DNA of 64,000 nucleotides from the IMG/VR virus record IMGVR_UViG_3300046010_015054, positions 32,001 through 96,000 of that record; one strand, given 5' to 3'. Both the position numbers and the translations under genes were made by a program. This document shows positions 3,906-23,803 of the stretch, piece by piece. The notes below the pieces were generated by a model that was given only the letters and a program-made list of their open reading frames with translations, was not told the DNA's origin and did not search any database. The number at the start of each line of letters is the position of its first letter. Within the stretch, counting starts at the first letter, position 1. This stretch comes from a virus.

Positions 3906-3907
3906 CT

Positions 3908-7066: not shown

Positions 7067-7071
7067 GAAAA

Positions 7072-7260
7072 CTATTTTTCTATTTCTAAATTATTGTGGT
7101 TATGTAATTGTTTTCTAAAATTCTCATCAGTAAGATATAAATGAATAGCTCGGTCGGCAAGTTTTTGAAACGAAAACTTATGTCTTACACACGAAACTTT
7201 AAATTCATTAAATAAATCACTTTGGATTTTTACACTGGTTAATGTCATATCTTTTGCCAT
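7072..7260 (-). CDS. small ribbon-helix-helix-like DNA-binding protein
   Basis: 62 aa; TSVKI strand followed by two predicted helices (DLFNEFKVSC; SFQKLADRAIHLYL). Confidence 0.5.
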   Translation of the reverse strand: MAKDMTLTSVKIQSDLFNEFKVSCVRHKFSFQKLADRAIHLYLTDENFRKQLHNHNNLEIEK

Positions 7261-7284
7261 ATTTATATAATTTTATATACGAAC

Positions 7285-7292
7285 ATACATAT
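7285..7292 (-). promoter_or_regulatory. putative phage late promoter motif ATAT(G/T)TAT
   Basis: ATATGTAT on the minus strand ~25 nt upstream of the RHH gene; the same motif precedes most structural genes. Confidence 0.4.
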
Positions 7293-7308
7293 ATCGGGAT
7301 TTACATTT

Positions 7309-8253
7309 CTATTGAAAATTGCACAAATTTTTCATGTCTTTAAAAACACAATATTGACAATTCCATTTAGAGGGTTTTGCTTCTTGTTGATGCTTATTAT
7401 AAGTACCATCTTTTGAGAAAGCAAGCTCAATAAACGTATTAAGTCTATTTGTGGCTTGATTTAATTTTATCTTACCAGAAGTAGGCTTATGAGTTTGTAT
7501 TCTTCTATCAGGATACTCACTTTCTTCATTTATTTTTCTTTTTAGAATAAAATATTCTATATCTATATTTTCTACTGGGTAGTCAAATTGCTCAGCAAAA
7601 AATTTTTTATAAAGAATAAGTTGAGAATTTTTTACTTCATCACCTTTTTCTTTTTGTTTCCAACCCCTAGTACTAGTTTTAATATCTATAATTTTTACAT
7701 TTCTAGTATTTTCATTATAAAGTACTAAATCAAGTAAACCTTTATAAAGAATACTAGGGTATCCTGAGTGTGGTTTAAGTATAATTGGGAGTTCAATTCC
7801 TAATAAATGCCAAAATCTTTTACTAAAATATTTACCTTTATTTTTCTTAAACCAATTTATAATAGCTACACCATCATTAAAAAATTCTCTTAGTTCAGTA
7901 GCACTAGAAAAATGGATTTTATTGTTTTTTTCGTAATCTTGTTTATATTGATTACGTAATTTTTCTTCAAATAATCCAATAATATTTTCTCTATCAGCTG
8001 CAGCTATACTTTTACTATACATTATTTGTAGATAATGTTGCAATGTTTCATGCATAGCAGTTCCAAAGGTCATATGAATGCTAAATTCACTTTTATAATG
8101 ACCATCACGATAAAGAAGTGCCCATTTATGAGGACACTGCTCGAAAATTTGATATTGACTAAAAGAAATTACTCTGTTTTTAGTATAATCTATTTCAATT
8201 AGTTTTTTATCTCTTACTTCTTTTAATATACTTGGTTCTTTCTTTTTAGCCAA
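7309..8253 (-). CDS. PD-(D/E)XK nuclease, Cas4/RecB-like with Fe-S cysteines
   Basis: SFSQYQIFEQCP, GTAMH, GLLDL, IIDIKT, QLILY, C-terminal CQYC-x7-C. Confidence 0.85.
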   Translation of the reverse strand: MAKKKEPSILKEVRDKKLIEIDYTKNRVISFSQYQIFEQCPHKWALLYRDGHYKSEFSIHMTFGTAMHETLQHYLQIMYSKSIAAADRENIIGLFEEKLRNQYKQDYEKNNKIHFSSATELREFFNDGVAIINWFKKNKGKYFSKRFWHLLGIELPIILKPHSGYPSILYKGLLDLVLYNENTRNVKIIDIKTSTRGWKQKEKGDEVKNSQLILYKKFFAEQFDYPVENIDIEYFILKRKINEESEYPDRRIQTHKPTSGKIKLNQATNRLNTFIELAFSKDGTYNKHQQEAKPSKWNCQYCVFKDMKNLCNFQ

Positions 8254-8255
8254 AA

Positions 8256-9350
8256 CTATTCTTTTATAAATCTAGTATTTAATTCTAAAATATTTTGAGG
8301 AGATACTTTATTTGTAAATTCTTCTACTACTCCGTTTCTTATATTTTTATTAAATACTATATATTCTCCTTCTAAATCTAATTCATCATAACACCACGTA
8401 AAAGGATTAAGTGAAATGTTTTTATGATAAATTTCTTTCCCTTCTAAATTAATAACCTTACATTCAATCTCCAAGCTATCTTCTTCATTCCAGTAAAATA
8501 AACCTATTTTATTAGTAAGTTCTTTTTTATCATTTTTATGTAAAAGAATTTTACAAACTTTAGGTATATTTTTCCATTTATCTACCCACCCTCCAGGATT
8601 ATTAATAAGATCAAATTTAGAATTAGGATATTGATCTCTAACACTTCCTGGGTGGTTTATACCTTTAAATGGGTATTTTTGTTTTTGGTAATAAAATATT
8701 GTTGGGATAATATATTCAATCCATTTACCATAATAGTTAATTTTTTTACATAAATCCCAATAGTCTTTATCATTATTTACTAGATTAAAACCGGTAAATA
8801 AATCTGTAGAAAAGCCTACCATATGAACATCCATTAATCTATGATGAGGTTTGGCCCAATCTCCTTCTTGACGTTCACCATATAAAAGAAAATGTTCAAA
8901 TGTTTCTAGGTCATTTTTTAAAGATTCTAAATCATTTAGATCAAATTCGGTATCAGCTTCAATTCTAAAAATACGTTTATAACCTAAATTTTCAGCTGCT
9001 GTGCTAGCAAATATAAAACTATTGTAAATATTAGCAGTATGATCTTGAACACCTACTAAGGGTAACCAATTTTCATGGGTACCCATAGATGTTTTTACAT
9101 AAACATAAGGACGTTCATATAATTCTTTATCTAAAAGTTCTTGAGGGGGATGCCCTATCATAAATCCTCCTGTATGATTCCAGTAATGTTTTACTTTAGA
9201 ATCTAACCCCCATGAAAATGAAAATTTATTAAATAAAGCAATTTCATATGGTAAAATTGAATTAAGTTGATCTATTAAATTAGAACATACTTTTGCTCTT
9301 TCTGGGGTAGATAAATAACCATCTACAACTATTAATAGATCTGAGGTCAT
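8256..9350 (-). CDS. hypothetical protein, possible GT-A-like enzyme
   Basis: 364 aa ORF; GYKRIFRIEAD acidic motif; glycan island context. Confidence 0.4.
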   Translation of the reverse strand: MTSDLLIVVDGYLSTPERAKVCSNLIDQLNSILPYEIALFNKFSFSWGLDSKVKHYWNHTGGFMIGHPPQELLDKELYERPYVYVKTSMGTHENWLPLVGVQDHTANIYNSFIFASTAAENLGYKRIFRIEADTEFDLNDLESLKNDLETFEHFLLYGERQEGDWAKPHHRLMDVHMVGFSTDLFTGFNLVNNDKDYWDLCKKINYYGKWIEYIIPTIFYYQKQKYPFKGINHPGSVRDQYPNSKFDLINNPGGWVDKWKNIPKVCKILLHKNDKKELTNKIGLFYWNEEDSLEIECKVINLEGKEIYHKNISLNPFTWCYDELDLEGEYIVFNKNIRNGVVEEFTNKVSPQNILELNTRFIKE

Positions 9351-11803
9351 ACTTTTATGATATTTGTGTAAATAATCTTATTAGTATATTCTTCTACTAT
9401 TCTAGTTTCATAATAACCTGAGTTTAGAAATAAATCACTTAAGAAAAAACTCCAATATTTAAAAATTTCTTGATAATTTAAAGTATAAAGAATCTGATCA
9501 TTGTTTAATATTTCAAATCTAACAACAGGTTGGAGATTTTTATCTCCTAAAAACGAATTTTTAGTCCACCAAAAAGAATTATTTTTGTATTCAATTAAAA
9601 AATCATCTTGAGATAATATCGTTTTAAAATAATTTTCTTTTAATTGGTTTTGAAATTCAGGATTTTTAAACCCATGAAATGCAATTAAATCATTTTCATG
9701 TTGAGGTAAGACTAATTCATCAGATACTGGATGTTTGCCATATTTGTAGTTATGGAATATTTCCATATCAACGTATGGGATTTCTTCAATATCTACTAAT
9801 GGGAGGCATTTTCTGTAATTATATCTATTAATTAATAAATTAGCAGAATCTTCATCATGTAAAGCAAATATACCTGGTTTAGTATTTTTGTAAGTATTAA
9901 ATAAATTAATTTGTTCTTCAAAAAACCATTTACAAGTTTTATCAAAAACAATTACATTAGTTTTTCTTCTAGGATAAACATGAACTGGGTCACCTGTAAC
10001 ATCTGCTAAAATATTTAAAGGGCTAGACCATTCTTCTCCTTCAATTAAATTCATAACAACAATCCTATCGTGAGTATGTGAATTTATTAAAGGAAATCCT
10101 TCTAAATGCTTAAAGTATTTAACTATAGAATCAGCATTTACTGTCAAAGAAATATCTGTATCAACGTACACAAATTTACTTTCGGGAAGATATTCAACTA
10201 CATCTGTTAAAATAGAAGGCTTTAAGGATAATACATTATCATATTTACCTCTAGCATTTAATTCACCTAATTCAACATCTAATCTTCTTACTATAAATTG
10301 ATCACTTAGTTTAAAAGCTAAATCTGAGGTATAGTTTATAGTATAAAGAATACATTTTCTATTAGAAAATTGTTCTATTGAATTAATTAAAACCTGAAGT
10401 AAAGATTCATAATTTTTAGTAAAATGGGTTACCCAATAAAAATCTTCTAAATAAACTTTTTTATATTCTGAAATTATAGAATTTCCTCTAAAGGATAATT
10501 TTGTATAAGGTTTATTATAGAAATGGTGAAGCATAATTTCCTTATCTTTACAATAAGTTTTACCCCCAACCCAAGTAGCTCCATAAATTACTTTACCTGA
10601 TTCTTCTTCTAGATTTTGACTATAAGTAATTACTTTAACTTTTTTATTTTGAGTAGCCCAATCATTCAAATCCTTTTCTCCTATACCATAAATTTCTTTA
10701 GTATCAAAAATATTATAATATCTTTCAGTCTGGAATTGGTTTAGTATTTCAGGATCATTTTTAAAAATTAATAAAGGACCTCCTAATCTATTATGAAAAT
10801 TTTCTCCTCCAGTACTTATAAAATCATATTCTCCTAAATAAGGATTTACCCAATTGTACAGATCACCCATTAAAGTGTCTATATCAAAAATACCAAAATA
10901 GTCATACTTTGAATAATCAATTATGTCGCTAAACATATTTACAAAGTATGAAAACTTTAAATCAGTAATTTTTTTATTACCTCCTAAAAGTTGTAATTCT
11001 CTATTATTAGCACGACTAAATCTTTGTTTTAATTCTTCTATATTTAAAGGAATAATATTATAATTAGAAGGTAAATTAGAAATATCTACTTCTTGATCTG
11101 TAAAAAAGTAAATATCAAAAATTTCATTTTGCTTTGTAATAGTTTCTTTATGAAACTGATAATAATCTGGTAAAGGTCCTAACCAAACTTCAATTAATAA
11201 TACTTTGGGTTGAGAGTTATATTTTAAAATAACATCTCTTTTAGCATTAAATTCTATAAATGAATATCCTACACTTTTAGCTTTATTAATAGTATCTATT
11301 CTAGTTTGGTCTGGGGTTAATTCATTAGCTTCAAAAATAATAGTTTCAGGGTATACATTATGTCCTCCTTCTAGGATATTATTAACAATAATAGTATCGT
11401 GCCCTTCAGCATCTATTTTTAAAGTTTTAACACTTTCTATATTATACCTTTCTACTAAATCTTTCCAAGTAAGAACTTCTACTTCATCTATTTTTAAAAG
11501 ATGTTCTAAACTTCGTTCTTTTAACTCTCTAAGAGTAACAGGATGAGGTTCACCAATAGAATTACAACCTTTTAAATACCAAGAAAGATTATTAGATTCT
11601 ATGTCTTCAGGTTCAACATAATAAACCTGAGTAATTCCTGAATAGTTACTAATGGCATGGTTTAATTTAGTAACTTTTTCTTTATTTGGTAGGCGATTAA
11701 GGTATAAATTAACAGCATCTATAGATAATCCTATTTCATCAGTTGAGGATTGGATAAGAGTTTCAAAATCAGAAGTACCTATTTCTATAAAATCGTAATT
11801 CAT
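9347..11803 (-). CDS. three-domain fusion: FkbM-type methyltransferase plus two putative glycosyltransferase domains
   Basis: N-term FIEIGTSD...LKIDAEGHD (FkbM); middle VWLGPLPDY...DLK...YDYFGIFDID (DUF6625-like GT); C-term KPSIL...FVYVDTD (GT-A DxD). Confidence 0.7.
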   Translation of the reverse strand: MNYDFIEIGTSDFETLIQSSTDEIGLSIDAVNLYLNRLPNKEKVTKLNHAISNYSGITQVYYVEPEDIESNNLSWYLKGCNSIGEPHPVTLRELKERSLEHLLKIDEVEVLTWKDLVERYNIESVKTLKIDAEGHDTIIVNNILEGGHNVYPETIIFEANELTPDQTRIDTINKAKSVGYSFIEFNAKRDVILKYNSQPKVLLIEVWLGPLPDYYQFHKETITKQNEIFDIYFFTDQEVDISNLPSNYNIIPLNIEELKQRFSRANNRELQLLGGNKKITDLKFSYFVNMFSDIIDYSKYDYFGIFDIDTLMGDLYNWVNPYLGEYDFISTGGENFHNRLGGPLLIFKNDPEILNQFQTERYYNIFDTKEIYGIGEKDLNDWATQNKKVKVITYSQNLEEESGKVIYGATWVGGKTYCKDKEIMLHHFYNKPYTKLSFRGNSIISEYKKVYLEDFYWVTHFTKNYESLLQVLINSIEQFSNRKCILYTINYTSDLAFKLSDQFIVRRLDVELGELNARGKYDNVLSLKPSILTDVVEYLPESKFVYVDTDISLTVNADSIVKYFKHLEGFPLINSHTHDRIVVMNLIEGEEWSSPLNILADVTGDPVHVYPRRKTNVIVFDKTCKWFFEEQINLFNTYKNTKPGIFALHDEDSANLLINRYNYRKCLPLVDIEEIPYVDMEIFHNYKYGKHPVSDELVLPQHENDLIAFHGFKNPEFQNQLKENYFKTILSQDDFLIEYKNNSFWWTKNSFLGDKNLQPVVRFEILNNDQILYTLNYQEIFKYWSFFLSDLFLNSGYYETRIVEEYTNKIIYTNIIKV

Positions 11804-12381
11804 TATTTTATTTTTTTAGCGGGAATCCCCACATAAACCCCAGATTCTTCTATAGGTTTTACTACGCATGAATTCATACCAATGGTAGATGAGCTATGGA
11901 TTGAAAGTTTTTCTTTAATAGACGAGTTAGTACCCATATAAACCATATCAAATATGGTAACATTACCTGATACTATGGCTCCAGGCATAGCACTAAAATA
12001 AGAACCTATTTTACAATCATGACCAATTTGATTACCTCGATTCAAAATAGAATGTCTACCTAATTCAATATTTGTAGTTAATATGCTATTTACTCCTATA
12101 AAACTACCTACTCCTACTTTGATATTACTATCTAATATTTGAACTGTTGGATGAACAAAAGTAAAATATTGAGTTTCTTTAGGTAAACGTTGAACTATAT
12201 CAAAACGATCTTTTGGGTCAGCTACGGCAACCATCATAGCATATTCTTGAGGATTAAACTCAGAAATAGGCTTAGCTACATCATTAGCATACTGATCATC
12301 TACAAAAAATGTAACTTCATCTTCAATCTGACATGCTACTTCTCTTGCATGTCCTCCATAACCGAATAGTGCTAATTTCAT
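11803..12381 (-). CDS. NeuD/PglD-family sugar acetyltransferase (left-handed beta helix)
   Basis: FGYGGHAREV, HPT, hexapeptide repeats, IGHD, GIPAK. Confidence 0.9.
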   Translation of the reverse strand: MKLALFGYGGHAREVACQIEDEVTFFVDDQYANDVAKPISEFNPQEYAMMVAVADPKDRFDIVQRLPKETQYFTFVHPTVQILDSNIKVGVGSFIGVNSILTTNIELGRHSILNRGNQIGHDCKIGSYFSAMPGAIVSGNVTIFDMVYMGTNSSIKEKLSIHSSSTIGMNSCVVKPIEESGVYVGIPAKKIK

Positions 12382-13037
12382 TGTTGATAAATTGGGAATT
12401 TAGATAGATCTGGGTATGGTAGAGTTAAATCTTCGTTTTGTTTTTTACTACCATCTAAATTATAAAATTGATTCATAAGTAATAAACCACGAGCTGCTAA
12501 TTCAGGCATCATATAAAAATTCCACCCTAGCATATCAAGATTATCGTCATGATATGAACACTCACGTCTTCCTGAATATCTGGCTCTTTTGAACCAATGA
12601 TAAGCTGCTAAATTATCAGTTAAGATAGCTCCTCCTTTACTTAATTTAAAATGTTTATATGGGCCCGTAAAAGAAATACACATATGGGTTCCTTTTAAGT
12701 ACATATCTGCTGTAAATCTTAAAGCAGAATCATACACATTACTATTACCTAATTCATAGGCTCCAGTTAAAGTACCCTTTTTTGTATCTAAACATCCGTA
12801 ATTTTTAGTAAACTTAACTTTTAAACCAGCATGAATAATTTCACAAGGTACAGATGGGTAAGTTCGATTTGGGATAATAATATGATCACTAATAATACTT
12901 TTCTTTACATTTTTTTCATAATATAAAGCTAAAAATAAAGCATTAGACATGTTATCTAATGTAACGACATAAGGGGCCCCAGTATAATCACCTAGGGCTT
13001 TTTCAAACTCGTTTGTTATATCATAAACGTTTTTCAT
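12378..13037 (-). CDS. short DegT/DnrJ/EryC1/StrS-family PLP-dependent enzyme
   Basis: EFEKAL, NALFLAL, YDSA, SF-x4-KH, GGAILTD, GWNFYM; lacks the C-terminal small domain. Confidence 0.75.
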   Translation of the reverse strand: MKNVYDITNEFEKALGDYTGAPYVVTLDNMSNALFLALYYEKNVKKSIISDHIIIPNRTYPSVPCEIIHAGLKVKFTKNYGCLDTKKGTLTGAYELGNSNVYDSALRFTADMYLKGTHMCISFTGPYKHFKLSKGGAILTDNLAAYHWFKRARYSGRRECSYHDDNLDMLGWNFYMMPELAARGLLLMNQFYNLDGSKKQNEDLTLPYPDLSKFPIYQQ

Positions 13038-13446
13038 ATTCCATCTTAATATAATTTCTATCTCTTACAAATCCACGCTCACCTGTTTCTTTAAAACCTA
13101 ATTTTAAATATAAATCTTTAGCAAAATTATCACTAAAAACCCATAAACTAGCATAAGTTTTATCTTTTAGATACTCTTGATAAGCAGCTTTAGCATATCC
13201 TTGTTTTCTATGTAAAGGATGGATATCACATCCAACTTCATCTCCATTAGTTCTTAAATAACCTACAGCTTCTAAGTGTTTATTAATTATAATATACCAA
13301 GGAGATGTTAAATTACTAAACCAGCTTTCACATTGTTCAAGATTAAAAATAGAATTATTCTCTAAATTTCTTCTAGTTGAATAATCATTTCTAACTTCTA
13401 AAAGAAATGGTAAATCTTCTTTAGTTAAAAGTCTTAATGTTACCAT
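13021..13446 (-). CDS. GNAT N-acetyltransferase (PseH-like)
   Basis: LRLLTKEDL, HRKQGYAK (motif A), N-x2-A-x2-LYLKLGF. Confidence 0.8.
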   Translation of the reverse strand: MVTLRLLTKEDLPFLLEVRNDYSTRRNLENNSIFNLEQCESWFSNLTSPWYIIINKHLEAVGYLRTNGDEVGCDIHPLHRKQGYAKAAYQEYLKDKTYASLWVFSDNFAKDLYLKLGFKETGERGFVRDRNYIKMEYEKRL

Positions 13447-14633
13447 CCTTTTTTAATACAATCAGCAATGTATTCTCTTTCTTCAGGAGTAACCCACCAA
13501 CCAACTGGGATTGAAACTATTTTTCCAATTGTTTTATCCAATGTAGGGAGTGAAGTTCTAAATTCTTTAACGGCTGTATGCTTATCATTTCTTTCATGTA
13601 CTTGAGATACAGCAATTTTACATTCATCCATCCAACGATAGAAACCATCTCTATTGTCAACTAACATTGAGTAAATCCAAAAAGAACTTTCATGACCAAA
13701 ATGACGATCTAAAAGAGTTACACCCTTAACATCATTAAGATTTGAATCATAAAAAAAAGCATTTTCTTTATGTTTATTTACTATTGAGTTGATGTGTTTT
13801 AGATTTTCTATACCAATAGTCGCATTAACATCATTCATGTGGAATTTATAACCCCACTCTTCAATATTGGCTTCACAACGGAAATCTTTACGATCACCAT
13901 CTCTGTCAATTCCATACCAACGAATTAATTTACCTCTATCATGTAGTTCTTTATGAGGTGAAAGAAGTAAACCACCGTCTACTGAAGTAAGGTGTTTAAT
14001 TGCTTGAAGAGAGAACATAGTTAGATTACCATGACTTCCAATTGGTTTGTTTTTATAGTAAGAACCAAATGAATGAGCTCCATCTTCAATTACAGCAGGT
14101 TTAAAACCATACATGTGATAGGCTTTATTCTGTATTTGTTTAATTTTATCTAAATCGTTAGGGTACCCACCCCAATGGACTAACATTATAGCTTTGGTTG
14201 TGGGGCTAATTTTACGAGCTAAGTCATCCAAATCCATATTAAGTGTAGTAGGGTCAATATCTACCCACTTAATTTTTAAACCATGAGCTAAAATAGGCCA
14301 ATTTGAAGCAGTACACGTCATAGCTGTAGCTAACACTTCATCTCCAGGTTGTAAGCCTGGCCAATTGGTTTCGTATCCTATAACTCCTTCAAAAACTTTA
14401 TTATAAGTAGCAGGTTTTTTTAATAAATGAAGTGCTAAATGTAAAGCAGAAGTTCCAGAATTTACGGTTTGAACATAATCATGATTAAAATAGGTTTTAA
14501 GTTGATTTTCAAACTTTTCAACTTGGGGACCTTGACCAATGTAGCCACTGTTAAGAACTTTTGTTACCTCTTCAGCAGCGGTATCCGCCATGAATACTTT
14601 AAATAATGGAATTTTATTTTTTGGACTAAACAT
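13440..14633 (-). CDS. DegT/DnrJ-family NDP-sugar aminotransferase
   Basis: NSGTSALHLAL, VHWGG, IEDGAH, FSLQAIKHLTSVDGG, GYKFHM. Confidence 0.9.
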   Translation of the reverse strand: MFSPKNKIPLFKVFMADTAAEEVTKVLNSGYIGQGPQVEKFENQLKTYFNHDYVQTVNSGTSALHLALHLLKKPATYNKVFEGVIGYETNWPGLQPGDEVLATAMTCTASNWPILAHGLKIKWVDIDPTTLNMDLDDLARKISPTTKAIMLVHWGGYPNDLDKIKQIQNKAYHMYGFKPAVIEDGAHSFGSYYKNKPIGSHGNLTMFSLQAIKHLTSVDGGLLLSPHKELHDRGKLIRWYGIDRDGDRKDFRCEANIEEWGYKFHMNDVNATIGIENLKHINSIVNKHKENAFFYDSNLNDVKGVTLLDRHFGHESSFWIYSMLVDNRDGFYRWMDECKIAVSQVHERNDKHTAVKEFRTSLPTLDKTIGKIVSIPVGWWVTPEEREYIADCIKKGW

Positions 14634-14634
14634 A

Positions 14635-15075
14635 TTATTTATATTTTTCTATATAATCACTACAAACACCAAGTGTTTTTTCGTTAGGTTCTTTATTAAA
14701 TACTTCGGGCATAACTAAAATACCTCTTTCAAATAAATTTGTTGACCAAATATAACCCTTAGATGTTAAAACACCAAGGTCATTTTCATGCCAAAAATAA
14801 TTTACTTTATCACCATTTTGATCTAATTGATTTAATGTAGATAAAGCAGCCATATTTTTACAATGAATCCAAAGATTAGGATAGTTTTTATCTAAAAGAT
14901 CAAAAGGAAATTCATATTGTGGTTCATCATGCCCAAGCATAAATTTTCCGTTTTCAAGCCAAACATCAATTTCAACATCATATCCTGCTTTTAAAGCTTC
15001 AAAAATATATTCTGGGTGGTTTTCGCGTTCAGGGTTGGGGCCTGAAATGTTTCCGCGGTGTGATATTAATTTCAT
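14635..15075 (-). CDS. minimal glycerophosphodiester phosphodiesterase/PLC-like protein
   Basis: ISHRGN, EN, DVEIDV, LGHD, WIHCKN, GVCSD motifs of a truncated GDPD TIM barrel. Confidence 0.75.
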   Translation of the reverse strand: MKLISHRGNISGPNPERENHPEYIFEALKAGYDVEIDVWLENGKFMLGHDEPQYEFPFDLLDKNYPNLWIHCKNMAALSTLNQLDQNGDKVNYFWHENDLGVLTSKGYIWSTNLFERGILVMPEVFNKEPNEKTLGVCSDYIEKYK

Positions 15076-15767
15076 TTTTTAATTATTATTGACATATTAT
15101 TTCCTAAAGGTTCTTTAATTTTTATAATAGGTAAAACACCAAATAATTTTTTTAGAAACTTAATTACTTTAGGTGTCATAAACTCAGGAAATATATCGTG
15201 AAGTACAATTATATATTCTTTATCTAATAAAGGATAAATTGCTTCTATATCTTTTATTAATTGATCAGGAAAATGTCCTCCATCAATAAAAATAAAGTCT
15301 AAAGGCTCTGTAATGTGCTTTTTAATACATTTTTCAGTATCATTAGGACTCCAACCTATTTCTAAAAAAACATTATCTTTTAAATCAAAATGTTCTATTA
15401 AGTAATTAGCAGATTTATAACCATCTGCATCATAAAACAATGAAGGATTTTGATTTTCATAAGTCCAAAAAGAATTTACTTCTTCTTCAATATAGGCATC
15501 CATTGAAACAAGTTTACCTCCTGTTTGTTTAAATCCTAATCCTAAAGCGGTTGTACTAATGCCAAACGCTGTAGCTATTTCAAAACCATTTTTACAATTA
15601 TATTCTACTATAGTATTTTTTAAAAATTCAAATTCAGTAGGTCTAATTGAATAAGGAAAATCATGACCAACCATTTTTAAATTTTTACCTAAACCATATT
15701 CTCCAGGAGCTATTTCATACTGAACAGGTCCATCTTTTAGATTAAGTAGATTTTCAAAATAGTCCAT
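15072..15767 (-). CDS. class I SAM-dependent methyltransferase (Methyltransf_24-like)
   Basis: FEIATAFGIST, DFIFIDGGH, IVLHD. Confidence 0.8.
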   Translation of the reverse strand: MDYFENLLNLKDGPVQYEIAPGEYGLGKNLKMVGHDFPYSIRPTEFEFLKNTIVEYNCKNGFEIATAFGISTTALGLGFKQTGGKLVSMDAYIEEEVNSFWTYENQNPSLFYDADGYKSANYLIEHFDLKDNVFLEIGWSPNDTEKCIKKHITEPLDFIFIDGGHFPDQLIKDIEAIYPLLDKEYIIVLHDIFPEFMTPKVIKFLKKLFGVLPIIKIKEPLGNNMSIIIKK

Positions 15768-15769
15768 AA

Positions 15770-16420
15770 TTATTTTATTTTAGCAAATCCAATCCCCCAA
15801 TCATCTTGTTGCTCACAATATTGAGTAACTTCAAAAATATCTGGGTTTAGGTTTTTAATAATTCTACTAGGGCCTGGGTGATAATTTGTGTCATGGAAAC
15901 CTATTACCCCACCAGGTGCCATGAAATCAACATACCAAAGTTCATCAATAACTTGATTAATAGAATGCCAACCATCTACAAATAAAAAGTCAATTTGAGA
16001 TATTTTTAGAGCATCTAATTTAGCTTGAATTTTTTCATAATCTTCACTTTTAGATTGTAAAGTAAAAATATTTCGACCCATTCCCTGTAAGAATGTTTTA
16101 TCATCAATATCAATTCCTAAATAAATAGCTTTAGGATTTTTATGTTTTAAAAGTATAGAGGTTGAAGTTTGGTCGTAGGATTGGTTATAAGTAATTCTTG
16201 AAACACCAATTTCGACAATAACCTTAGTTTGGTCTTTTACTTTAGTAAATTCTTCGGTCAATGCTGCTTGGTTGCACATTGAAAATTCTTTGTTCCCTAC
16301 TAATTCAAAAGGGTTAGGGAATTGAGGTATAAAATCTTTATCGTTATCTTCTAAATTTTCTAGTCTAATATCATTTACAAGATATTTTTGTATATTATGT
16401 TTTCTAAAGTTGTTTTCCAT
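15770..16420 (-). CDS. class I SAM-dependent methyltransferase (Methyltransf_24-like)
   Basis: IVEIGV, GIDI, DFLFVDGWHS, PGGVIGFHDT. Confidence 0.8.
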   Translation of the reverse strand: MENNFRKHNIQKYLVNDIRLENLEDNDKDFIPQFPNPFELVGNKEFSMCNQAALTEEFTKVKDQTKVIVEIGVSRITYNQSYDQTSTSILLKHKNPKAIYLGIDIDDKTFLQGMGRNIFTLQSKSEDYEKIQAKLDALKISQIDFLFVDGWHSINQVIDELWYVDFMAPGGVIGFHDTNYHPGPSRIIKNLNPDIFEVTQYCEQQDDWGIGFAKIK

Positions 16421-16430
16421 TTTATTATTA

Positions 16431-17666
16431 TTAAAAAATTCTATATGCTAAATCTTCAGAAAACTCTTCTTTACCCCATTTTTCAATAGCAGCTTTATAT
16501 TCAGGTTTATCTGTTTCGTGATTAATTGCTTGTTTCATAGCTAAACCACCTGCTAAAGTTCCCATAGGATGACCATGTAATGCTCCTCCTACATTAGCTA
16601 ACCAATCATTACTTTCTAACGACTGATTAATAAATTGAACTAGTCCTGGGTGCATACCGCAACTTAAAGCAGGGACAATATTGTAATGCCAAAGTACTTT
16701 TAAGGCATCTCTTAATTCTTCTTCGTCTTGATTCATGTAACCACCAATCATACCAGCGTGGATTGAATCAGCACCTGACCATCCTGCTATCTTACATATT
16801 ACAGGCCAGTAAATATGGAATGGTGCTCTTCTATCTGTAAAGAATTTATCACCACTCTTTTGGAAGTGAATCCATAAACAAGGATTTTGTTTTCTAATTG
16901 CTCTGTATATTCCTAATCCACTCCAAACGTTAATGTGAATGCCATTTCCACCATTATCTGCTACAAATTTAGCTCTTTCTAAGGCATATGGGCTATCCCC
17001 ATTTATACAAAAACAATAAATAACGTCAGGAGCATTTTCTTTAAGCCATGATGCAATCAAAGGTACTCTTACTTCAAGAGGACAATGTTCTGGGTTAGCT
17101 AATAATTCATCTTCTTTAATAAAATTAACTCCCCCATAAACCATTTCTTTTACTGCTTCTAGTAGTACTTCAGGACTCATCCCTACTTTAGGTTTAATAA
17201 TACCTCCTAAAAATGGTTTGTCATAAACCTTATTAAATTTTCTCCAACCATCAATTCCGTAGGCAGGTTTTAAAGCAAATTGTTCCTCTACTTTTTCTGG
17301 GAGTTGGATATCAAGTACTTGGCATTTTTGAATTTCTAAGATATCAACTTGACCACCTGCTATATGGCATAAAATTTGAGAAATACCATCTTCTTCAAGA
17401 TTAATATTAGCTAAAGGAAATGCTATTTTTACATTTCCTGCTTTAGTAGATTTAAGATATTCTTGATTAGCTAAAATAAAACAACTATGGTTTTCAAACA
17501 TTTCTTCTGTTTCCCATATACTTCTATTATTAGGATTACCTATACTTTGACCTATAGCTAAATTCCAAGCTGCTTCTCGAAGTGAAGTTTTTGCTTCTAA
17601 ATAATAAGTAACTATAAAGTATTTTTCTTTATTTATTTCTTCTTCTGTTCTAAAAATTTTAATCAT
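16431..17666 (-). CDS. RuBisCO-like protein (form IV RLP), non-carboxylating
   Basis: GGIIKPKVG, FIKEDE carbamate/Mg motif, DSIHAG, PALSCG, GGALHGHP; loop-6 Lys replaced by Tyr. Confidence 0.9.
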   Translation of the reverse strand: MIKIFRTEEEINKEKYFIVTYYLEAKTSLREAAWNLAIGQSIGNPNNRSIWETEEMFENHSCFILANQEYLKSTKAGNVKIAFPLANINLEEDGISQILCHIAGGQVDILEIQKCQVLDIQLPEKVEEQFALKPAYGIDGWRKFNKVYDKPFLGGIIKPKVGMSPEVLLEAVKEMVYGGVNFIKEDELLANPEHCPLEVRVPLIASWLKENAPDVIYCFCINGDSPYALERAKFVADNGGNGIHINVWSGLGIYRAIRKQNPCLWIHFQKSGDKFFTDRRAPFHIYWPVICKIAGWSGADSIHAGMIGGYMNQDEEELRDALKVLWHYNIVPALSCGMHPGLVQFINQSLESNDWLANVGGALHGHPMGTLAGGLAMKQAINHETDKPEYKAAIEKWGKEEFSEDLAYRIF

Positions 17667-17669
17667 AAC

Positions 17670-17990
17670 TTATACTATATACTTATCTCCTTTTACACTA
17701 GGGGTTTTTACAACTATTAGTTCACAATTAGTTAAAAATTCAGGAACTGCTACTTCACCCGGGTGTAGAATAAATATATCACCCTTTTTTAAGTAAGTCC
17801 CGCTTAACTTCATCTTCCCACGAATAATATAATTTATTTCAGTAGCTACTTTGTGGTAGTGGTTATCCCAAATTTCTCCTTTTGGGTGAAACTTATAACT
17901 AACTTCAAATTCTTTTGTAGAATAAGCAGTTGGTTCGAAGTCACCTACAAACCAACCACCTACCATATTTTTACCTTTTAAAACGTCCAT
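17670..17990 (-). CDS. cupin-domain protein
   Basis: GGWFVGDF, HYHKVATE metal motif, GDIFILHPGE, DKY C-terminus. Confidence 0.8.
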   Translation of the reverse strand: MDVLKGKNMVGGWFVGDFEPTAYSTKEFEVSYKFHPKGEIWDNHYHKVATEINYIIRGKMKLSGTYLKKGDIFILHPGEVAVPEFLTNCELIVVKTPSVKGDKYIV

Positions 17991-19363
17991 TATTTAAAAT
18001 TTTCAAGATAATACGTTAACTCTTCAGGGGTACCTAATCCCCACATATCATCTTTATCAATCATAAAACATGAAATATGTTTATCATCTTGAATAGCTTC
18101 ATTATATACAGGACAAACATAAAATTCATTATTTACCCTAATATTTTTAGAAATCATTTGTTCAGCATATTTTACAAAGTCTGAACCTTGTTTCCAGTAA
18201 TACATTCCAACTGTTGCATTATCTGAGATTGGGTTTTTTTCTGCTACTTCGGTTACTCTATTATTTTCATCTACTTTAGCAAATGACCATTTAGGATGAG
18301 TGCCTTTAAAACATAAAATACCTCCATCAACACTAGTTTCATTCATTTTATAAAAGAATTCATTTGAATCCCAAATAATATGTTGATCTGAATTAGCAAA
18401 CAAAAGTGGAGAATCATTATCAATATATTCTTTAGCTAATAAAGCAGTACAAGCAGCACCTTCGGTTACACCATCTACTTCTATAATTTTACATCCTGGA
18501 GTAAGTAAATTGAGTAGAGTATCTAAGTTGTATTTTTCTCTATGTTCTTTTTGTACTGCATAGATAAAATTAGCTTTAATGTTAAGCATTTCAACTACAA
18601 CTTGAATCATAGGTTTACCTTTAACATCAATTAAAGGTTTAGGGAATGTATAACCCGCTTGAGCAAATCTAGAACCTGCTCCAGCCATTGGTATAATTAC
18701 ATTTAATTTATTATCTCTCCAAGCAGGTGATTTCATGACGTATCCTTTTTCTATTTCTGTTAATTTATTAAAAATATTTGTATAAGTAACTTCTTTTGGA
18801 TTTTTTACTCTTAAAATATGTGATTTACTTCTTGAAGCTGCTAATAATCCATAAGGTGAATCTTCTACAATAAGTGTTTCTTCTGGGAGGCAACTCATCA
18901 TAGAAATAGCCTTCCAATACATTTCAGGGTGTGGTTTGCTATTTTTAACGTCTTCGTTAGAAATAACTAAATCCATAAATTCCATTATCCCTAACTTAGA
19001 AAGTACAGTTAATACTGTTTTTCGAATGCTATTAGAACAAACTGCTAGTTTATAACCGCTTTCAGATAAAGATGACATCATTAATTGAAATTCTTCATTC
19101 GGTTTAAGGGCACGAAGTTCTTCTAAAGTATATTTTTGTTTATCTTCCCAAACTTTAGAATGTAATTCAACTGGTAAACCTTTTTCCTTAGTTAACATTT
19201 CAAGTTTTTGATTGGTTTTTAAACCATCATATTTACTTAAATGTTCTTTCCAACTAATAGAATATTCATTCCCTAAAGCTTTATTTAGGGCTTCATAATG
19301 AAGATTTTTAGCTTCAACTAATACTCCATCTAAATCAAAAATAATTAACTTTATCATTTCCAC
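17990..19363 (-). CDS. HAD-IA phosphatase fused to sugar-phosphate nucleotidyltransferase
   Basis: N-term FDLDGVL, SNS, KPHPE, EDS; C-term IPMAGAGSRF, PKPLI, TEGAACT, NSD, EK, EFYV, GLGTPE. Confidence 0.85.
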   Translation of the reverse strand: MEMIKLIIFDLDGVLVEAKNLHYEALNKALGNEYSISWKEHLSKYDGLKTNQKLEMLTKEKGLPVELHSKVWEDKQKYTLEELRALKPNEEFQLMMSSLSESGYKLAVCSNSIRKTVLTVLSKLGIMEFMDLVISNEDVKNSKPHPEMYWKAISMMSCLPEETLIVEDSPYGLLAASRSKSHILRVKNPKEVTYTNIFNKLTEIEKGYVMKSPAWRDNKLNVIIPMAGAGSRFAQAGYTFPKPLIDVKGKPMIQVVVEMLNIKANFIYAVQKEHREKYNLDTLLNLLTPGCKIIEVDGVTEGAACTALLAKEYIDNDSPLLFANSDQHIIWDSNEFFYKMNETSVDGGILCFKGTHPKWSFAKVDENNRVTEVAEKNPISDNATVGMYYWKQGSDFVKYAEQMISKNIRVNNEFYVCPVYNEAIQDDKHISCFMIDKDDMWGLGTPEELTYYLENFK

Positions 19364-19716
19364 TTATTTCTCATAACTAGCTGGGCAATGATTCCATAGT
19401 TTGAAATGTCAATAAAACTATCAATTGCGGCTTCTCCTGCTACGTAATTTTTACCATTACGCTTAAGAATATTCTTTAAGCGATTGATTTTATCATTACA
19501 GCGAAGCCAGATGCCTGTGATTGAAAGGTTTATATCATCTTGGTCTTCGAGTGTTGAGCCCAAAGCAATATTACCTAGACCGTAATCCATCATTTTAGCA
19601 GCGAACAATTCATATTGTTCCTCTTGAATTTGCTTAAATTCAGCTGCTAATTCAGGGTATGTTTTTTGAAAATCTGTAACTGCTTTTGAATTACCGTAAC
19701 CTGCTTGTTCTTCCAT
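19354..19716 (-). CDS. DUF1599 / nucleotide-modification-associated all-alpha domain protein
   Basis: K-x2-DYG, R-x2-DK-x2-R, D-x3-D-x2-NY pattern. Confidence 0.7.
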   Translation of the reverse strand: MEEQAGYGNSKAVTDFQKTYPELAAEFKQIQEEQYELFAAKMMDYGLGNIALGSTLEDQDDINLSITGIWLRCNDKINRLKNILKRNGKNYVAGEAAIDSFIDISNYGIIAQLVMRNKWK

Positions 19717-19717
19717 T

Positions 19718-20395
19718 TTATTTATTGTTTATGTAAATTATAACTTCATTATAGTATTCTATAAAATGCTCATTCCACAAATCCCATTTTATATCTATCC
19801 CATCTACAGAATATACAGCATGATTTGGAAAAAGCCTAAGGAAAACATCCCTAAATACTCTAAATTGTTGTTTTAGTTCTGGGGTAGATAGATGCCATTC
19901 ACCTACTGCTACTCCTAGATTATCTTTTAACCAACAAAGATTTTCAAAATTAAAAATACTATATTCTCCTCCTTCACAATCTGTTTTAAGAAAATCTATC
20001 TTATTAATATTATTTTCTTTTAGTAAAGTTTTAAATGAAATACCCTCTAATGTTGAAGATTTTGTTGGATCAAAAATTTCAGTAGTAGCTAATTCACCAT
20101 CAGTAGGTGTTATAGCTTTTTTAATAATAGTAACAGGACCTCCTTGTGTATTTTTTTCTAAAGTAGGGTGTTCAATTACTGATGGTTCTATACAAAATAC
20201 TTTAGATGGATTTTTATGAAGTATAGAATAAGTAAAAGGACCAATGCTAGAACCAACATCTAATACAATATCACCTTCTTCAACTTCAAAAAACTTTTCG
20301 TATAAATTTTGTTCAAAAATTTCAAATGTAATAGCCTTTTGGTGAAAAGCATCTCCTTCAGCCATCCAACCCCAGTCAAAACCTTTTAAATCCAT
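19718..20395 (-). CDS. FkbM-family methyltransferase
   Basis: VLDVGSSIG, CIEP, IDFLKTDCEGGE, GEWH. Confidence 0.85.
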   Translation of the reverse strand: MDLKGFDWGWMAEGDAFHQKAITFEIFEQNLYEKFFEVEEGDIVLDVGSSIGPFTYSILHKNPSKVFCIEPSVIEHPTLEKNTQGGPVTIIKKAITPTDGELATTEIFDPTKSSTLEGISFKTLLKENNINKIDFLKTDCEGGEYSIFNFENLCWLKDNLGVAVGEWHLSTPELKQQFRVFRDVFLRLFPNHAVYSVDGIDIKWDLWNEHFIEYYNEVIIYINNK

Positions 20396-20396
20396 A

Positions 20397-20813
20397 TTAA
20401 AGTTTTTTAATTAACTTATCTTGTTCTTTAACGTCAACTCCCATTTCCCACAAAATATGTCGAACACCTGGTTCTCGAATTATATCAATATAGTGATCAG
20501 CTTCACCTAAACTACATTCATAATATTTTGCTATGTATTCTACTACTTCTTGTGGTTTTATTTTTTTATTTGATTTAGTGTATTTTAAAAATACATTTTT
20601 CTTGGGAATCATTTGACAATAAATGGTATAATATTTTTCTTTTTCGGTAAACGGGATTGTTTGGACATAATTTACAAATTCTATATAATTAACATCCATC
20701 GATAAATACCGATTAATCATGAAAACATTAAAAGACTCGCGATCTTTCTCAGAAAAATTTTCCCAAGGTGTTTTATTGGTTGTTATTTCTTTTAACCAAT
20801 CAAACAAATTCAT
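20397..20813 (-). CDS. clamp loader small subunit (T4 gp62-like)
   Basis: FDWLKEI, FMINRYLS, IAKYYECS...A pattern; adjacent to gp44-like gene. Confidence 0.7.
   Translation of the reverse strand: MNLFDWLKEITTNKTPWENFSEKDRESFNVFMINRYLSMDVNYIEFVNYVQTIPFTEKEKYYTIYCQMIPKKNVFLKYTKSNKKIKPQEVVEYIAKYYECSLGEADHYIDIIREPGVRHILWEMGVDVKEQDKLIKKL

Positions 20814-22147: not shown

Positions 22148-23803
<1,656 letters not shown>

What the first reader, a model, noticed from the sequence alone, without database searches (positions are those of the whole stretch)
16431..17666. Distinctive RLP active-site signature: Mg/carbamate and phosphate sites kept, carboxylation residues lost
By-eye alignment to form I RbcL numbering. 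Retained: K175/K177 (IKPK), K201/D203/E204 (KEDE), H327, S379, G381, G403/G404. Changed: E60 to G (AIGQSIG), N123 to Q (GGQ), H294 to Q and R295 to K (IHFQK), G380 to C, and loop-6 K334 to Y (GMIGGY). Loss of E60, H294 and K334 together argues against CO2 fixation. The new Tyr/Gln/Cys around the enediolate could supply an opposite-face proton donor, consistent with an epimerase/isomerase (inference).
Basis: partly seen in the sequence, partly recalled or inferred. Interest (0 to 1): 0.7.

Follow-up and report, generated by a model that had tools for sequence, protein, structure and literature searches.

The report
Phage RuBisCO-like enzyme, remodelled active site
A large uncultured water phage carries a relative of the CO2-fixing enzyme RuBisCO that keeps its metal site but has swapped the CO2-handling residues for a fixed Gly/Gln/Tyr/Cys/His set. 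It always sits beside a sugar-activating enzyme, so it most likely reshapes a keto-sugar phosphate for an unusual surface sugar rather than fixing carbon, a role nobody has tested.

Summary
The gene is real: window 16431-17666, minus strand, 411 aa, with a RuBisCO large-subunit fold (AF2 pLDDT 95; TM 0.85 to form III RuBisCO).

Aligned against canonical RuBisCOs, it is mostly right.
- Kept: K175, K177, K201, D203, E204, H327, S379, G381, G403 and G404.
- Changed as stated: E60G, H294Q, R295K, G380C and K334Y.
- Correction: N123 aligns with Gly; the Gln is at position 124.
- Correction: the distal phosphate site is not intact (H298D, T65N, W66P).
- Missed: a new invariant His244.

**Conservation.** The signature is essentially invariant in 105 sequences at 30-94% identity. 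They form one clade (support 0.999) spanning phages, SAR11, Legionella, CPR bacteria and DPANN archaea. This matches the "form IV-like" phage clade of Jaffe et al. 2019, whose function is unknown.

**Context.**
- A nucleotidyltransferase lies within 5 kb in 51 of 54 lineages and is sometimes fused to the RLP.
- A small cupin, a mini-GDPD and GT-A-like transferases are frequent neighbours.
- The phage has no PRK, IF-2B or RbcS.
- Enterobacterales and Vibrio carry the same cassette without the RLP, with a nucleotidyltransferase-SnoaL fusion instead.

**Verdict.** It is a non-carboxylating enolising isomerase or epimerase in an uncharacterised nucleotide-sugar pathway. The substrate is unknown. 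This scan has already found the same cassette on other DNA, in at least 52 genomes.

The parts
16431..17666 (-). RuBisCO-like protein (RLP), 411 aa. Family signature: G39, Q40, N44, P45, G105, Q106, K158, K160, K184, E185, D186, E187, H244, Q269, K270, D273, H303, Y310, S335, C336, G337, G360, G361.
17670..17990 (-). Small cupin, 106 aa, with an invariant HxH...E metal motif (H44, H46, E51). It lies immediately upstream of the RLP.
   Evidence: profile hits to cupin_2, M6P-isomerase-like and KdgF chains; phrog_24762. Present in 71 of 87 viral loci, plus 9 as nucleotidyltransferase-cupin fusions.
17990..19363 (-). Fusion of a HAD (beta-PGM-like) domain and a sugar-phosphate nucleotidyltransferase, 457 aa. 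The transferase domain is the cassette's universal partner ('NTP1').
   Evidence: Profile hit to PDB 4evw at 1e-34. 50% identical to V. parahaemolyticus NTP1. The HAD occurs only as this fusion, in 7 RLP loci.
14635..15075 (-). Mini glycerophosphodiester-phosphodiesterase-like protein, 146 aa, with HRG, EN, ExD, LGHD and HCK motifs.
   Evidence: GDPD 7e0v, 4.9e-05; phrog_34507. Present in 69 of 87 viral loci.
15770..16420 (-). Methyltransf_24/TylF-like methyltransferase, 216 aa, directly downstream of the RLP (cluster c3, found in 28 loci).
15072..15767 (-). Second Methyltransf_24 methyltransferase, 231 aa.
1161..2530 (-). Two DUF7796-like proteins (222 and 234 aa) that are GT-A-like putative transferases. 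Two more paralogues lie just beyond the window.
   Evidence: Foldseek hits to GT6/GT8 retaining glycosyltransferases, TM about 0.45; phrog_13607.
404..20813 (-). Surrounding glycan-building cluster. It holds GT1/GT4 glycosyltransferases, a PseC-like DegT aminotransferase, PglD-like and GNAT acetyltransferases, FkbM methyltransferases and a DUF1599 protein.

Best explanation
The protein belongs to one tightly conserved, probably isofunctional branch of the RuBisCO superfamily that does not carboxylate.

**Shown here**
- It has the RuBisCO large-subunit fold.
- It keeps the Lys/Asp/Glu triad that forms the carbamate-Mg2+ site, the KPK lysines, H327, S379 and the glycine phosphate cradle.
- The residues RuBisCO needs to add CO2, hydrate and cleave (E60, N123, H294, K334) are replaced by an invariant set: Gly, Gly(+Gln124), Gln and Tyr, plus Cys380 and a new His244.

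**Inferred from established RuBisCO and RLP chemistry**
- The enzyme binds a phosphorylated 2-keto-3-hydroxy sugar on Mg2+.
- The carbamate removes a proton to give a cis-enediolate.
- Instead of CO2, a proton is returned. One option is return to C2, giving a carbonyl shift as in the R. rubrum RLP. The other is return to C3 from the opposite face, giving a 3-epimer as in RuBisCO's xylulose-bisphosphate side reaction.
- Tyr310 sits at the loop-6 position of K334 and is the most likely donor. His244 or Cys336 are alternatives.

**Inferred from gene context**
- The rearranged sugar phosphate is processed by the adjacent cupin, which is isomerase-like.
- In this phage it may also be processed by the HAD domain, acting as a phosphatase or mutase.
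- It is then activated by the ever-present nucleotidyltransferase.
- GT-A-like and other transferases pass it on and methyltransferases decorate it, yielding an unusual sugar unit on a surface or virion glycan.

The role of the mini-GDPD is unexplained. The substrate is unknown.
For: **Fold and family**
- Pfam matches.
- AF2 model with pLDDT 95.2.
- Foldseek TM 0.85 to form III RuBisCO and to RLPs.

**Residue mapping and invariance**
-.
- The family is monophyletic with support 0.999 over 106 tips.

**Context**
- A conserved nucleotidyltransferase-cupin-RLP core occurs in 87 viral loci.
- The same pairing occurs in 50 cellular loci. These include a complete Ca. Pelagibacter chromosome, three Legionella species, Nonomuraea, and DPANN and CPR organisms.
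- After dereplication to 54 lineages, a nucleotidyltransferase lies within 5 kb in 51, a cupin in 35, a mini-GDPD in 38 and a DUF7796-like protein in 27.

**Fusions**
- RLP-nucleotidyltransferase, 667 aa, in a cluster of 128 members.
- Nucleotidyltransferase-cupin, about 350 aa, in 9 loci.
- HAD-nucleotidyltransferase.

**Comparison with the RLP-less cassette**
- Yersinia, Vibrio and Scandinavium carry cupin, NTP1, a GDPD-like protein and HAD in O/K-antigen loci without an RLP. In Yersinia and Vibrio an NTP2-SnoaL fusion follows; it was not identified in the Scandinavium locus.
- SnoaL was not found in any RLP locus.
- This is consistent with the RLP filling an enolisation or isomerisation slot.

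**Sister clade**
- The nearest RLPs sit in catabolic sugar-kinase/aldolase operons, so this branch's anabolic context is specific to it.
Against: - No biochemical datum exists for any member.
- The substrate, the order of steps and the nucleotide used are unknown.
- Fusions with the nucleotidyltransferase would equally fit an RLP acting on the nucleotide-linked sugar.
- The cassette works without an RLP in enterics, so the RLP is an add-on rather than the core step.
- The mini-GDPD has no place in the scheme.
- In Legionella the pair sits next to a LicD-type phosphotransferase. That points to a CDP-linked phospho-alcohol rather than a classical glycosyl donor.
- I could not inspect model coordinates. 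The positions of Y310, H244 and C336 relative to the metal are inferred from alignment only.
Confidence: 0.55

Rival explanations
1. The RLP acts after activation. It binds a nucleotide-linked keto-sugar, with the diphosphate in the glycine phosphate cradle, and enolises, epimerises or isomerises that.
For: - RLP-nucleotidyltransferase fusions.
- In the RLP-less cassette, the enolising SnoaL domain is fused to a nucleotidyltransferase-like domain that could bind a nucleotide sugar.
- E60G, N123G and W66P remove bulk around the P1 side of the pocket. This could make room for a nucleotide (inference).
Against: - Every characterised RLP and RuBisCO acts on free sugar phosphates (established knowledge).
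- Fusions do not prove step order; type II PMI-GMP enzymes fuse non-consecutive steps.
- No 4,6-dehydratase that would create a keto nucleotide sugar is part of the core. An SDR is present in only 17 of 54 lineages.
Confidence: 0.2
2. The RLP performs carbon-skeleton chemistry rather than a simple proton shuffle. Examples would be a Mg-dependent alpha-ketol rearrangement, or a decarboxylation or transcarboxylation as in OiaX/OiaC. The product would be a branched-chain or shortened sugar or acid phosphate that is then nucleotide-activated.
For: - The RuBisCO pocket is built around a 2-C-branched intermediate, and RLPs of apiose catabolism handle branched acid sugars (established knowledge; the OiaX model is the fourth-best NCBIfam hit).
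- The space opened at positions 60, 123 and 334 lies where the extra carbon sits in RuBisCO (alignment).
- LicD next to the pair in Legionella suggests a phospho-alcohol or phospho-acid donor.
Against: - The OiaX model scores 114 bits against a cutoff of 700.
- No DUF1537 kinase or other apionate-pathway gene is nearby.
- There is no direct evidence for any C-C bond change.
Confidence: 0.1
3. It is a methionine-salvage or SAM-by-product RLP, either a DK-MTP-1-P enolase or an MTRu-1-P 1,3-isomerase working with a cupin as in Rhodospirillum rubrum.
For: - An RLP next to a small metal cupin recalls the R. rubrum MTA-isoprenoid shunt (recalled from the literature, not tested).
- The N-domain aligns best with a Geobacillus DK-MTP-1-P enolase.
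- One related phage locus is rich in radical-SAM genes.
Against: - The MtnW models score 125 and 92 bits against cutoffs of 409 and 514.
- The position that carries the catalytic Lys in MtnW-type enzymes (N123) is Gly here (the Lys role is from memory).
- No IF-2B/MtnA gene is found in the phage, in the complete Pelagibacter genome or in L. drozanskii.
- The universal partner is a nucleotidyltransferase inside glycan clusters.
Confidence: 0.03
4. It is a working carboxylase, or part of an AMP/nucleoside-salvage RuBisCO pathway like form III enzymes.
For: - Best structural matches and the best NCBIfam hit are form III RuBisCO.
- The KPK and K-x-D-E motifs are kept.
Against: - E60, N123, H294 and K334 are all replaced.
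- The form III model scores 155 bits against a cutoff of 497.
- The phage has no PRK, R15P isomerase or small subunit.
Confidence: 0.01
5. It is a non-catalytic scaffold or sugar-phosphate-binding subunit of the nucleotidyltransferase complex.
For: Fusion to and constant adjacency with the nucleotidyltransferase.
Against: The metal triad, both KPK lysines and about twenty pocket residues are invariant across bacteria, archaea and viruses. That is the pattern of a catalytic site.
Confidence: 0.03

Closest known systems
'Form IV-like' RuBisCO-related proteins of phages and Beckwithbacteria (Jaffe, Castelle, Dupont & Banfield; bioRxiv 10.1101/386292, also PMC6389311)
   Same: - Phage-encoded, some from myoviruses.
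- Highly divergent from other RLPs, with key residues unlike known form IV enzymes and function unclear.
- A Beckwithbacteria sequence (L101, 51% identity) carries the same signature and falls in this clade.
   Different: - That work gives no gene context or reaction.
- Here the clade also includes SAR11, Legionella, actinobacteria and DPANN archaea, and is tied to a nucleotidyltransferase cassette.
- Identity with their sequences was not checked directly.
Rhodospirillum rubrum RLP (5-methylthio-D-ribulose-1-phosphate 1,3-isomerase) with its cupin methylsulfurylase (recalled from the literature)
   Same: - A non-carboxylating RLP that enolises a ketose 1-phosphate and returns the proton elsewhere.
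- It is partnered with a small metal cupin.
   Different: - Here there is no MtnA/MtnK context.
- The partner is a nucleotidyltransferase in glycan clusters.
- No reference sequence was available for a residue comparison.
DK-MTP-1-P enolase MtnW/YkrW (PDB 2oek, 2zvi; NF007095, TIGR03332)
   Same: Same fold, carbamylated Lys-Mg site, E60 replaced by Gly, and enolisation chemistry.
   Different: - Scores lie far below the family cutoffs.
- K177 is kept here, whereas in the other RLPs compared it is usually replaced.
- Position 123 is Gly.
- The context is different.
OiaX/OiaC RLPs of D-apionate catabolism (NF042437) and the sister RLPs in sugar-catabolic operons
   Same: RLPs acting on phosphorylated keto-acid sugars. 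The immediate sister clade also has Tyr at position 334.
   Different: - Those sit with kinases, aldolases and ABC transporters, whereas this family sits with a nucleotidyltransferase.
- The OiaX model scores 114 bits against a cutoff of 700.
Form III RuBisCO (PDB 2d69, 3a13)
   Same: Best structural match, TM 0.85. KPK, K-x-D-E, H327, S379 and the glycine cradle are shared.
   Different: E60, N123, H294, R295, H298 and K334 are replaced, and there is no AMP-pathway partner.
RLP-less cupin/NTP1/GDPD-like/HAD cassette in O/K-antigen loci of Yersinia enterocolitica, Vibrio parahaemolyticus and Scandinavium (itself uncharacterised)
   Same: - Orthologous cupin (1e-30), NTP1 (1e-80; 50% identity to the window's domain), GDPD-like protein and HAD.
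   Different: - It has no RLP. In Yersinia and Vibrio it carries a second nucleotidyltransferase fused to a SnoaL-like domain, not identified in the Scandinavium locus. That domain is absent from all RLP loci examined.
GmhB/HddC (heptose) and type II PMI-GMP (AlgA/ManC) activation logic
   Same: - A HAD phosphatase plus a nucleotidyltransferase, or a nucleotidyltransferase fused to a cupin isomerase, builds an NDP-sugar from a ketose phosphate.
- HddC is among the transferase's weak hits.
   Different: - No kinase and no SIS isomerase.
- The HAD is of the beta-PGM type.
- The cupin is only 106 aa.
- An RLP has no counterpart in those pathways.

Membership tests
RuBisCO large-subunit superfamily | Sequence match to the catalytic and N-terminal domain models above the curated cutoffs | tested here: met
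   PF00016 at 107 bits (cutoff 30.1) and PF02788 at 27.4 bits (cutoff 20.7)
RuBisCO large-subunit superfamily | Fold of an N-terminal alpha/beta domain plus an eight-stranded TIM barrel | tested here: met
   AF2 pLDDT 95.2 with eight barrel strands. Foldseek TM 0.85 to 2d69 and 3a13.
RuBisCO large-subunit superfamily | Carbamate-Mg triad K201, D203, E204 | tested here: met
   K184, D186 and E187 are invariant in 105/105 sequences. Carbamylation itself cannot be tested here.
Bona fide RuBisCO (forms I-III) | Carboxylation, hydration and cleavage residues E60, N123, H294 and K334 | tested here: not met
   They are G39, G105, Q269 and Y310.
Bona fide RuBisCO (forms I-III) | Score above the NCBIfam equivalog cutoffs | tested here: not met
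   Form III 155 against 497, PRK04208 138 against 438, form II 98 against 489
Bona fide RuBisCO (forms I-III) | A supply of RuBP (PRK or R15P isomerase) and, for form I, a small subunit | tested here: not met
   No PF00485, PF01008 or PF00101 in the complete phage genome. No IF-2B in the complete Pelagibacter carrier.
DK-MTP-1-P enolase (MtnW/YkrW) | Score above the equivalog cutoffs | tested here: not met
   125 against 409 and 92 against 514 bits
DK-MTP-1-P enolase (MtnW/YkrW) | Methionine-salvage neighbours or genome content (MtnA, MtnK and others) | tested here: not met
   No IF-2B/MtnA in the phage, Pelagibacter or L. drozanskii. The neighbours are glycan genes.
R. rubrum-type MTRu-1-P isomerase | Sequence membership of the DeepYkr clade | not testable with these tools
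   No named reference sequence could be fetched. Only the cupin adjacency resembles it.
OiaX/OiaC | Score above the equivalog cutoff and an apionate-pathway context | tested here: not met
   114 against 700 bits. No DUF1537 kinase nearby.
'Form IV-like' phage/Beckwithbacteria clade (Jaffe 2019) | Phage-encoded, groups with Beckwithbacteria sequences, outside the known RLP clades | tested here: met
   Myovirus genome with a tail sheath. Beckwithbacteria L101 lies in the same 106-tip clade, support 0.999.
'Form IV-like' phage/Beckwithbacteria clade (Jaffe 2019) | Direct identity with the published sequences | not tested

The most novel reading that the evidence does not exclude
This branch of the RuBisCO fold is the signature enzyme of an undescribed anabolic route to a nucleotide-activated sugar, possibly a rare ketose, a 3-epimer or a branched-chain unit. 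The route would be used for surface or virion glycans by SAR11, Legionella, CPR bacteria, DPANN archaea and hundreds of phages. In it, a proton delivered by Tyr310 takes the place of CO2. That would be the first biosynthetic glycan role for the RuBisCO superfamily, and a new reaction for it.
Probability: 0.5. Interest if true: 0.8.

Novelty: new variant of a known kind. Interest (0 to 1): 0.6.

Why it matters
- All RuBisCO-like proteins with a known function so far work in salvage or catabolism: methionine salvage, the MTA shunt and apionate breakdown.
- This clade has a fixed, distinctive active site and is locked to a sugar-activating enzyme.
- A confirmed role would add an anabolic, glycan-building reaction to the best-studied enzyme fold in the carbon cycle.
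- It would show what the RuBisCO pocket does when a proton donor replaces the CO2-binding lysine.
- The clade occurs in the most abundant marine bacteria (SAR11) and in many abundant aquatic phages. The unknown sugar may therefore matter for phage-host recognition in natural waters.
- Cultured carriers exist (Legionella nautarum, L. maceachernii, L. drozanskii, Nonomuraea rosea), so the question can be tested directly.

Tried and rejected
- **GenBank phages.** The RLP has no PHROG family.
- **N-terminal domain against PDB.** A search with the N-terminal domain alone gave only a marginal MtnW match.
- **Literature.**
  - Searches for RLP plus nucleotidyltransferase, cupin, Pelagibacter or Legionella found nothing relevant.
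  - The Tabita 2007 review could not be read. Whether this is their IV-GOS clade therefore stays open.
- **NCBIfam.** It names none of the partners.
- **DUF7796-like protein.** Its sequence profile hit nothing in PDB. Only the fold search gave a GT-A likeness.
- **'BcbE-like' lead.** An earlier scan note led to a 2026 paper showing that P. multocida BcbE and BcbG are needed for a fructose side chain (PMC13552107).
  - I could not obtain a BcbE sequence, so the link to this nucleotidyltransferase is unverified.
  - A DNA search of E. coli genomes found nothing, and homologue names are generic.
- **Ketose activation.** The literature search on ketose activation found nothing.
- **Metatranscriptomes.** Contigs from RNA libraries of two studies hold short pieces like the RLP gene with few mismatches. 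DNA carry-over cannot be excluded, and the depth figures are not usable, so this is not counted as expression.
- **LicD.** It is confined to the Legionellaceae loci.
- **Model coordinates.** They could not be inspected, so no distances to the metal site are given.
Full report
**What is there**

The finding's coordinates hold one ORF on the minus strand, 16431-17666, encoding 411 aa. It matches Pfam RuBisCO_large and RuBisCO_large_N above their cutoffs. Every curated NCBIfam model scores far below its cutoff: form III 155 against 497 bits, MtnW 125 against 409, and OiaX 114 against 700.

The window lies in a 170,105-bp IMG/VR virus record that CheckV rates 100% complete.
- It is about 30% GC, with almost all genes on one strand.
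- It encodes a tail sheath, a UvsX-like recombinase, an exonuclease, DnaB, RNR, GroEL and an RFC-like clamp loader.
- The DnaB is 57% identical to that of Flavobacterium phage vB_FspM_immuto, so this is a large myovirus, probably of Bacteroidota.
- Near-identical DNA occurs in many lake-water and some marine-plankton metagenomes.

**Check of the residue list**

Alignments that include canonical RuBisCOs fix the numbering. In those sequences the 21 checked positions read ESTWN[ILV]KKKDEHRHHKSGGGG.

- K175 and K177 (K158, K160)
- K201, D203 and E204 (K184, D186, E187)
- H327 (H303)
- S379 and G381 (S335, G337)
- G403 and G404 (G360, G361)

HMMER alignments to solved RuBisCOs show the same for the motifs they cover: IHFHRAGH against IHFQKSGD, and GK against GY in loop 6.

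Three corrections are needed.
1. N123 aligns with G105. The Gln is at position 124.
2. The distal phosphate site and the partner-subunit contacts are not intact. H298 is D273, T65 is N44 and W66 is P45.
3. Further invariant, family-only residues were missed: Q40, R48, D108, E185 (D202), H244 (M266 of spinach, at the end of barrel strand 4), N246, S271 and G272.

**Is it more than chance?**

Homologues are very numerous. There are 2234 hits, and the best 120 are all 78-94% identical. About 20 full-length clusters at 50% identity score below 1e-60 in the representative library.

In 105 family sequences from viruses, bacteria and archaea, sharing 30-94% identity with the query:
- G60, Q61, Q294, Y334, the KPK lysines, the metal triad, S379, G381 and H244 are 100% conserved;
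- N65, P66, G123 and C380 are at least 99% conserved.

The sequences form one clade of 106 tips with support 0.999. This is the pattern of one conserved catalytic site, not of decay. The AF2 model is confident (pLDDT 95.2) and superposes on form III RuBisCO and on RLPs with TM about 0.85.

**Context**

In 87 viral loci the gene order is nucleotidyltransferase (about 240 aa), cupin (about 107 aa), then RLP.
- A 145-aa GDPD-like protein is usually nearby.
- So are one to three DUF7796-like proteins, whose model resembles GT-A retaining glycosyltransferases.
- A TylF-type methyltransferase is often present too.

The same pairing is found in 50 cellular loci:
- a complete Ca. Pelagibacter chromosome and many SAR11 single-cell genomes;
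- Legionella nautarum, L. maceachernii and L. drozanskii;
- Nonomuraea rosea, Azospirillum and Turneriella;
- Beckwithbacteria, Saccharibacteria and several DPANN archaea.

After dereplication to 54 lineages with at least 5 kb on both sides, the counts within 5 kb of the RLP are:

| Neighbour | Lineages (of 54) |
|---|---|
| Nucleotidyltransferase | 51 |
| Cupin | 35 |
| Mini-GDPD | 38 |
| DUF7796-like protein | 27 |

Natural fusions link the parts:
- RLP-nucleotidyltransferase, 667 aa, in a cluster of 128 members;
- nucleotidyltransferase-cupin, about 350 aa;
- HAD-nucleotidyltransferase, as in this window.

In Legionella the pair faces a LicD-family phosphotransferase. The nearest RLP relatives outside the family lie in catabolic operons with sugar kinases, a DeoC aldolase and ABC transporters.

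**A cassette that also exists without the RLP**

The transferase profile hits an uncharacterised solved pyrophosphorylase, 4evw, at 1e-34. Close homologues occur in O/K-antigen loci of Enterobacterales and Vibrio.

In Yersinia enterocolitica, Vibrio parahaemolyticus and a Scandinavium plasmid the shared genes are the same cupin (1e-30), the same NTP1 (1e-80), a full-length GDPD-like protein and a HAD phosphatase. In Yersinia and Vibrio a second nucleotidyltransferase fused to a SnoaL-like domain follows; I did not identify it in the Scandinavium locus. None of the three has an RLP.
- The window's transferase domain is 50% identical to the Vibrio NTP1.
- The Vibrio HAD retrieves the window's HAD domain.
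- No SnoaL domain was found in any RLP locus or in this phage (this was a weak two-sequence profile).

So the window's cassette shares four parts with the enteric one and differs by having an RLP where the other has NTP2-SnoaL. SnoaL-like domains catalyse enolisation-type reactions. This is comparative support, not proof, that the RLP supplies an enolisation or isomerisation step.

**What it is not**

The phage has no PRK, no IF-2B-type isomerase (MtnA or R15P isomerase) and no small subunit. IF-2B is also absent from the complete Pelagibacter carrier and from L. drozanskii. Together with the lost residues, this excludes a Calvin-cycle or AMP-pathway role and makes a methionine-salvage role unlikely.

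**Most likely mechanism**

Shown here: the fold, an intact metal triad and KPK lysines, the loss of the CO2, hydration and cleavage residues, and constant coupling to a nucleotidyltransferase in glycan clusters.

Inferred from established RuBisCO and RLP chemistry:
- A phosphorylated 2-keto sugar binds Mg2+ through O2 and O3.
- The carbamate abstracts a proton, giving an enediolate.
- A proton is returned instead of CO2. It may go to C2 (a carbonyl shift, as in the R. rubrum RLP) or to C3 from the other face (a 3-epimer, as in RuBisCO's xylulose-bisphosphate side reaction).
- Tyr310 sits at the loop-6 position whose Lys contacts the incoming CO2 in RuBisCO, so it is the best candidate donor. 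His244 and Cys336 are alternatives.

Inferred from context: the product is handled by the cupin and, here, by the HAD domain. It is then activated by the transferase, passed on by GT-A-like and other transferases, and methylated.

Not explained: the mini-GDPD, the Asp at position 298, the identity of the sugar and the nucleotide, and whether the RLP acts before or after activation.

**Comparison with what is known**

Jaffe et al. reported about 90 phage 'form IV-like' RLPs grouping with Beckwithbacteria, with divergent key residues and unknown function. A Beckwithbacteria member with the same signature is in this clade. The clade itself is therefore known.

What I did not find in the literature I could search:
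- the exact invariant signature;
- the spread to SAR11, Legionella and DPANN archaea;
- the coupling and fusions to a nucleotidyltransferase;
- the RLP-less sister cassette.

No curated family covers the RLP or its partners. This scan has already met the same cassette in at least 52 other genomes, with the same general reading. My analysis was made independently and agrees.

**Verdict**

The 'not a carboxylase' reading is sound. The 'epimerase/isomerase' reading is the best available but is untested. I class it as a new functional variant of a known superfamily, of moderate to high interest.

Noticed in passing
L143:8673-16974 (Yersinia enterocolitica), L144:8697-12095 (Vibrio parahaemolyticus), L142:8669-16227 (Scandinavium plasmid): An RLP-less cassette in O/K-antigen loci: cupin, NTP1, a GDPD-like protein of about 210 aa, HAD and, in Yersinia and Vibrio, a nucleotidyltransferase-SnoaL fusion. 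It often sits beside a WavE-family protein and Wzm/Wzt. As far as I could find, it is itself uncharacterised.
   Followed up: partly
P0205 (583 aa), P0266 (1265 aa), P0155 and P0164 (about 730 aa): Other RuBisCO-family fusions in metagenomes: a TIR domain fused to an RLP, a RuBisCO-like domain fused to an APH-type kinase, and IF-2B (R15P-isomerase-like) fused to a RuBisCO.
   Followed up: no
window 22148-24094 (-): The phage encodes a full bacterial-type GroEL (681 bits to TIGR02348). A 96-aa ORF just upstream could be GroES.
   Followed up: partly
window 12378-13037 (-) next to 13440-14633 (-): A 219-aa ORF matches only the first 70 or so positions of the DegT aminotransferase model. It sits beside a full-length PseC-like DegT gene and may be a truncated or diverged paralogue.
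   Followed up: no
window 19354-19716 (-): A DUF1599 protein ('nucleotide modification associated domain 1') sits inside the glycan cluster, between the HAD-nucleotidyltransferase and an FkbM methyltransferase.
   Followed up: no
genome positions 97789-99299 (just beyond the window's right end): Two more DUF7796-like GT-A paralogues lie outside the glycan cluster, near the block of large plus-strand ORFs. This hints that some of these transferases may act on virion proteins.
   Followed up: no
L134:5213-7487 (Legionella nautarum) and the same region in L133, L135, L136: In Legionellaceae the RLP-nucleotidyltransferase pair is divergently adjacent to a LicD-family phosphotransferase, a Wzy-like membrane protein and a CMD-family protein. 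LicD was found in no other RLP locus.
   Followed up: partly
L003:1-9000 (334-kb phage contig): In a related jumbo-phage locus the cassette is embedded among several radical-SAM/SPASM enzymes, DUF6071 proteins, a carbamoyltransferase, an APS-kinase-like protein, 2OG-Fe oxygenases and a tryptophan-halogenase-like gene.
   Followed up: no
PMC7901785, table of the Campylobacter jejuni IA3902 capsule locus (CJSA_1357-1362): The published gene list shows an inserted block: a pyrophosphorylase, a 109-aa unknown, a 111-aa 'ketosteroid isomerase', a 241-aa 'glycosyl transferase', a HAD and a 212-aa unknown. It looks like the RLP-less cassette. This was not checked by sequence.
   Followed up: no
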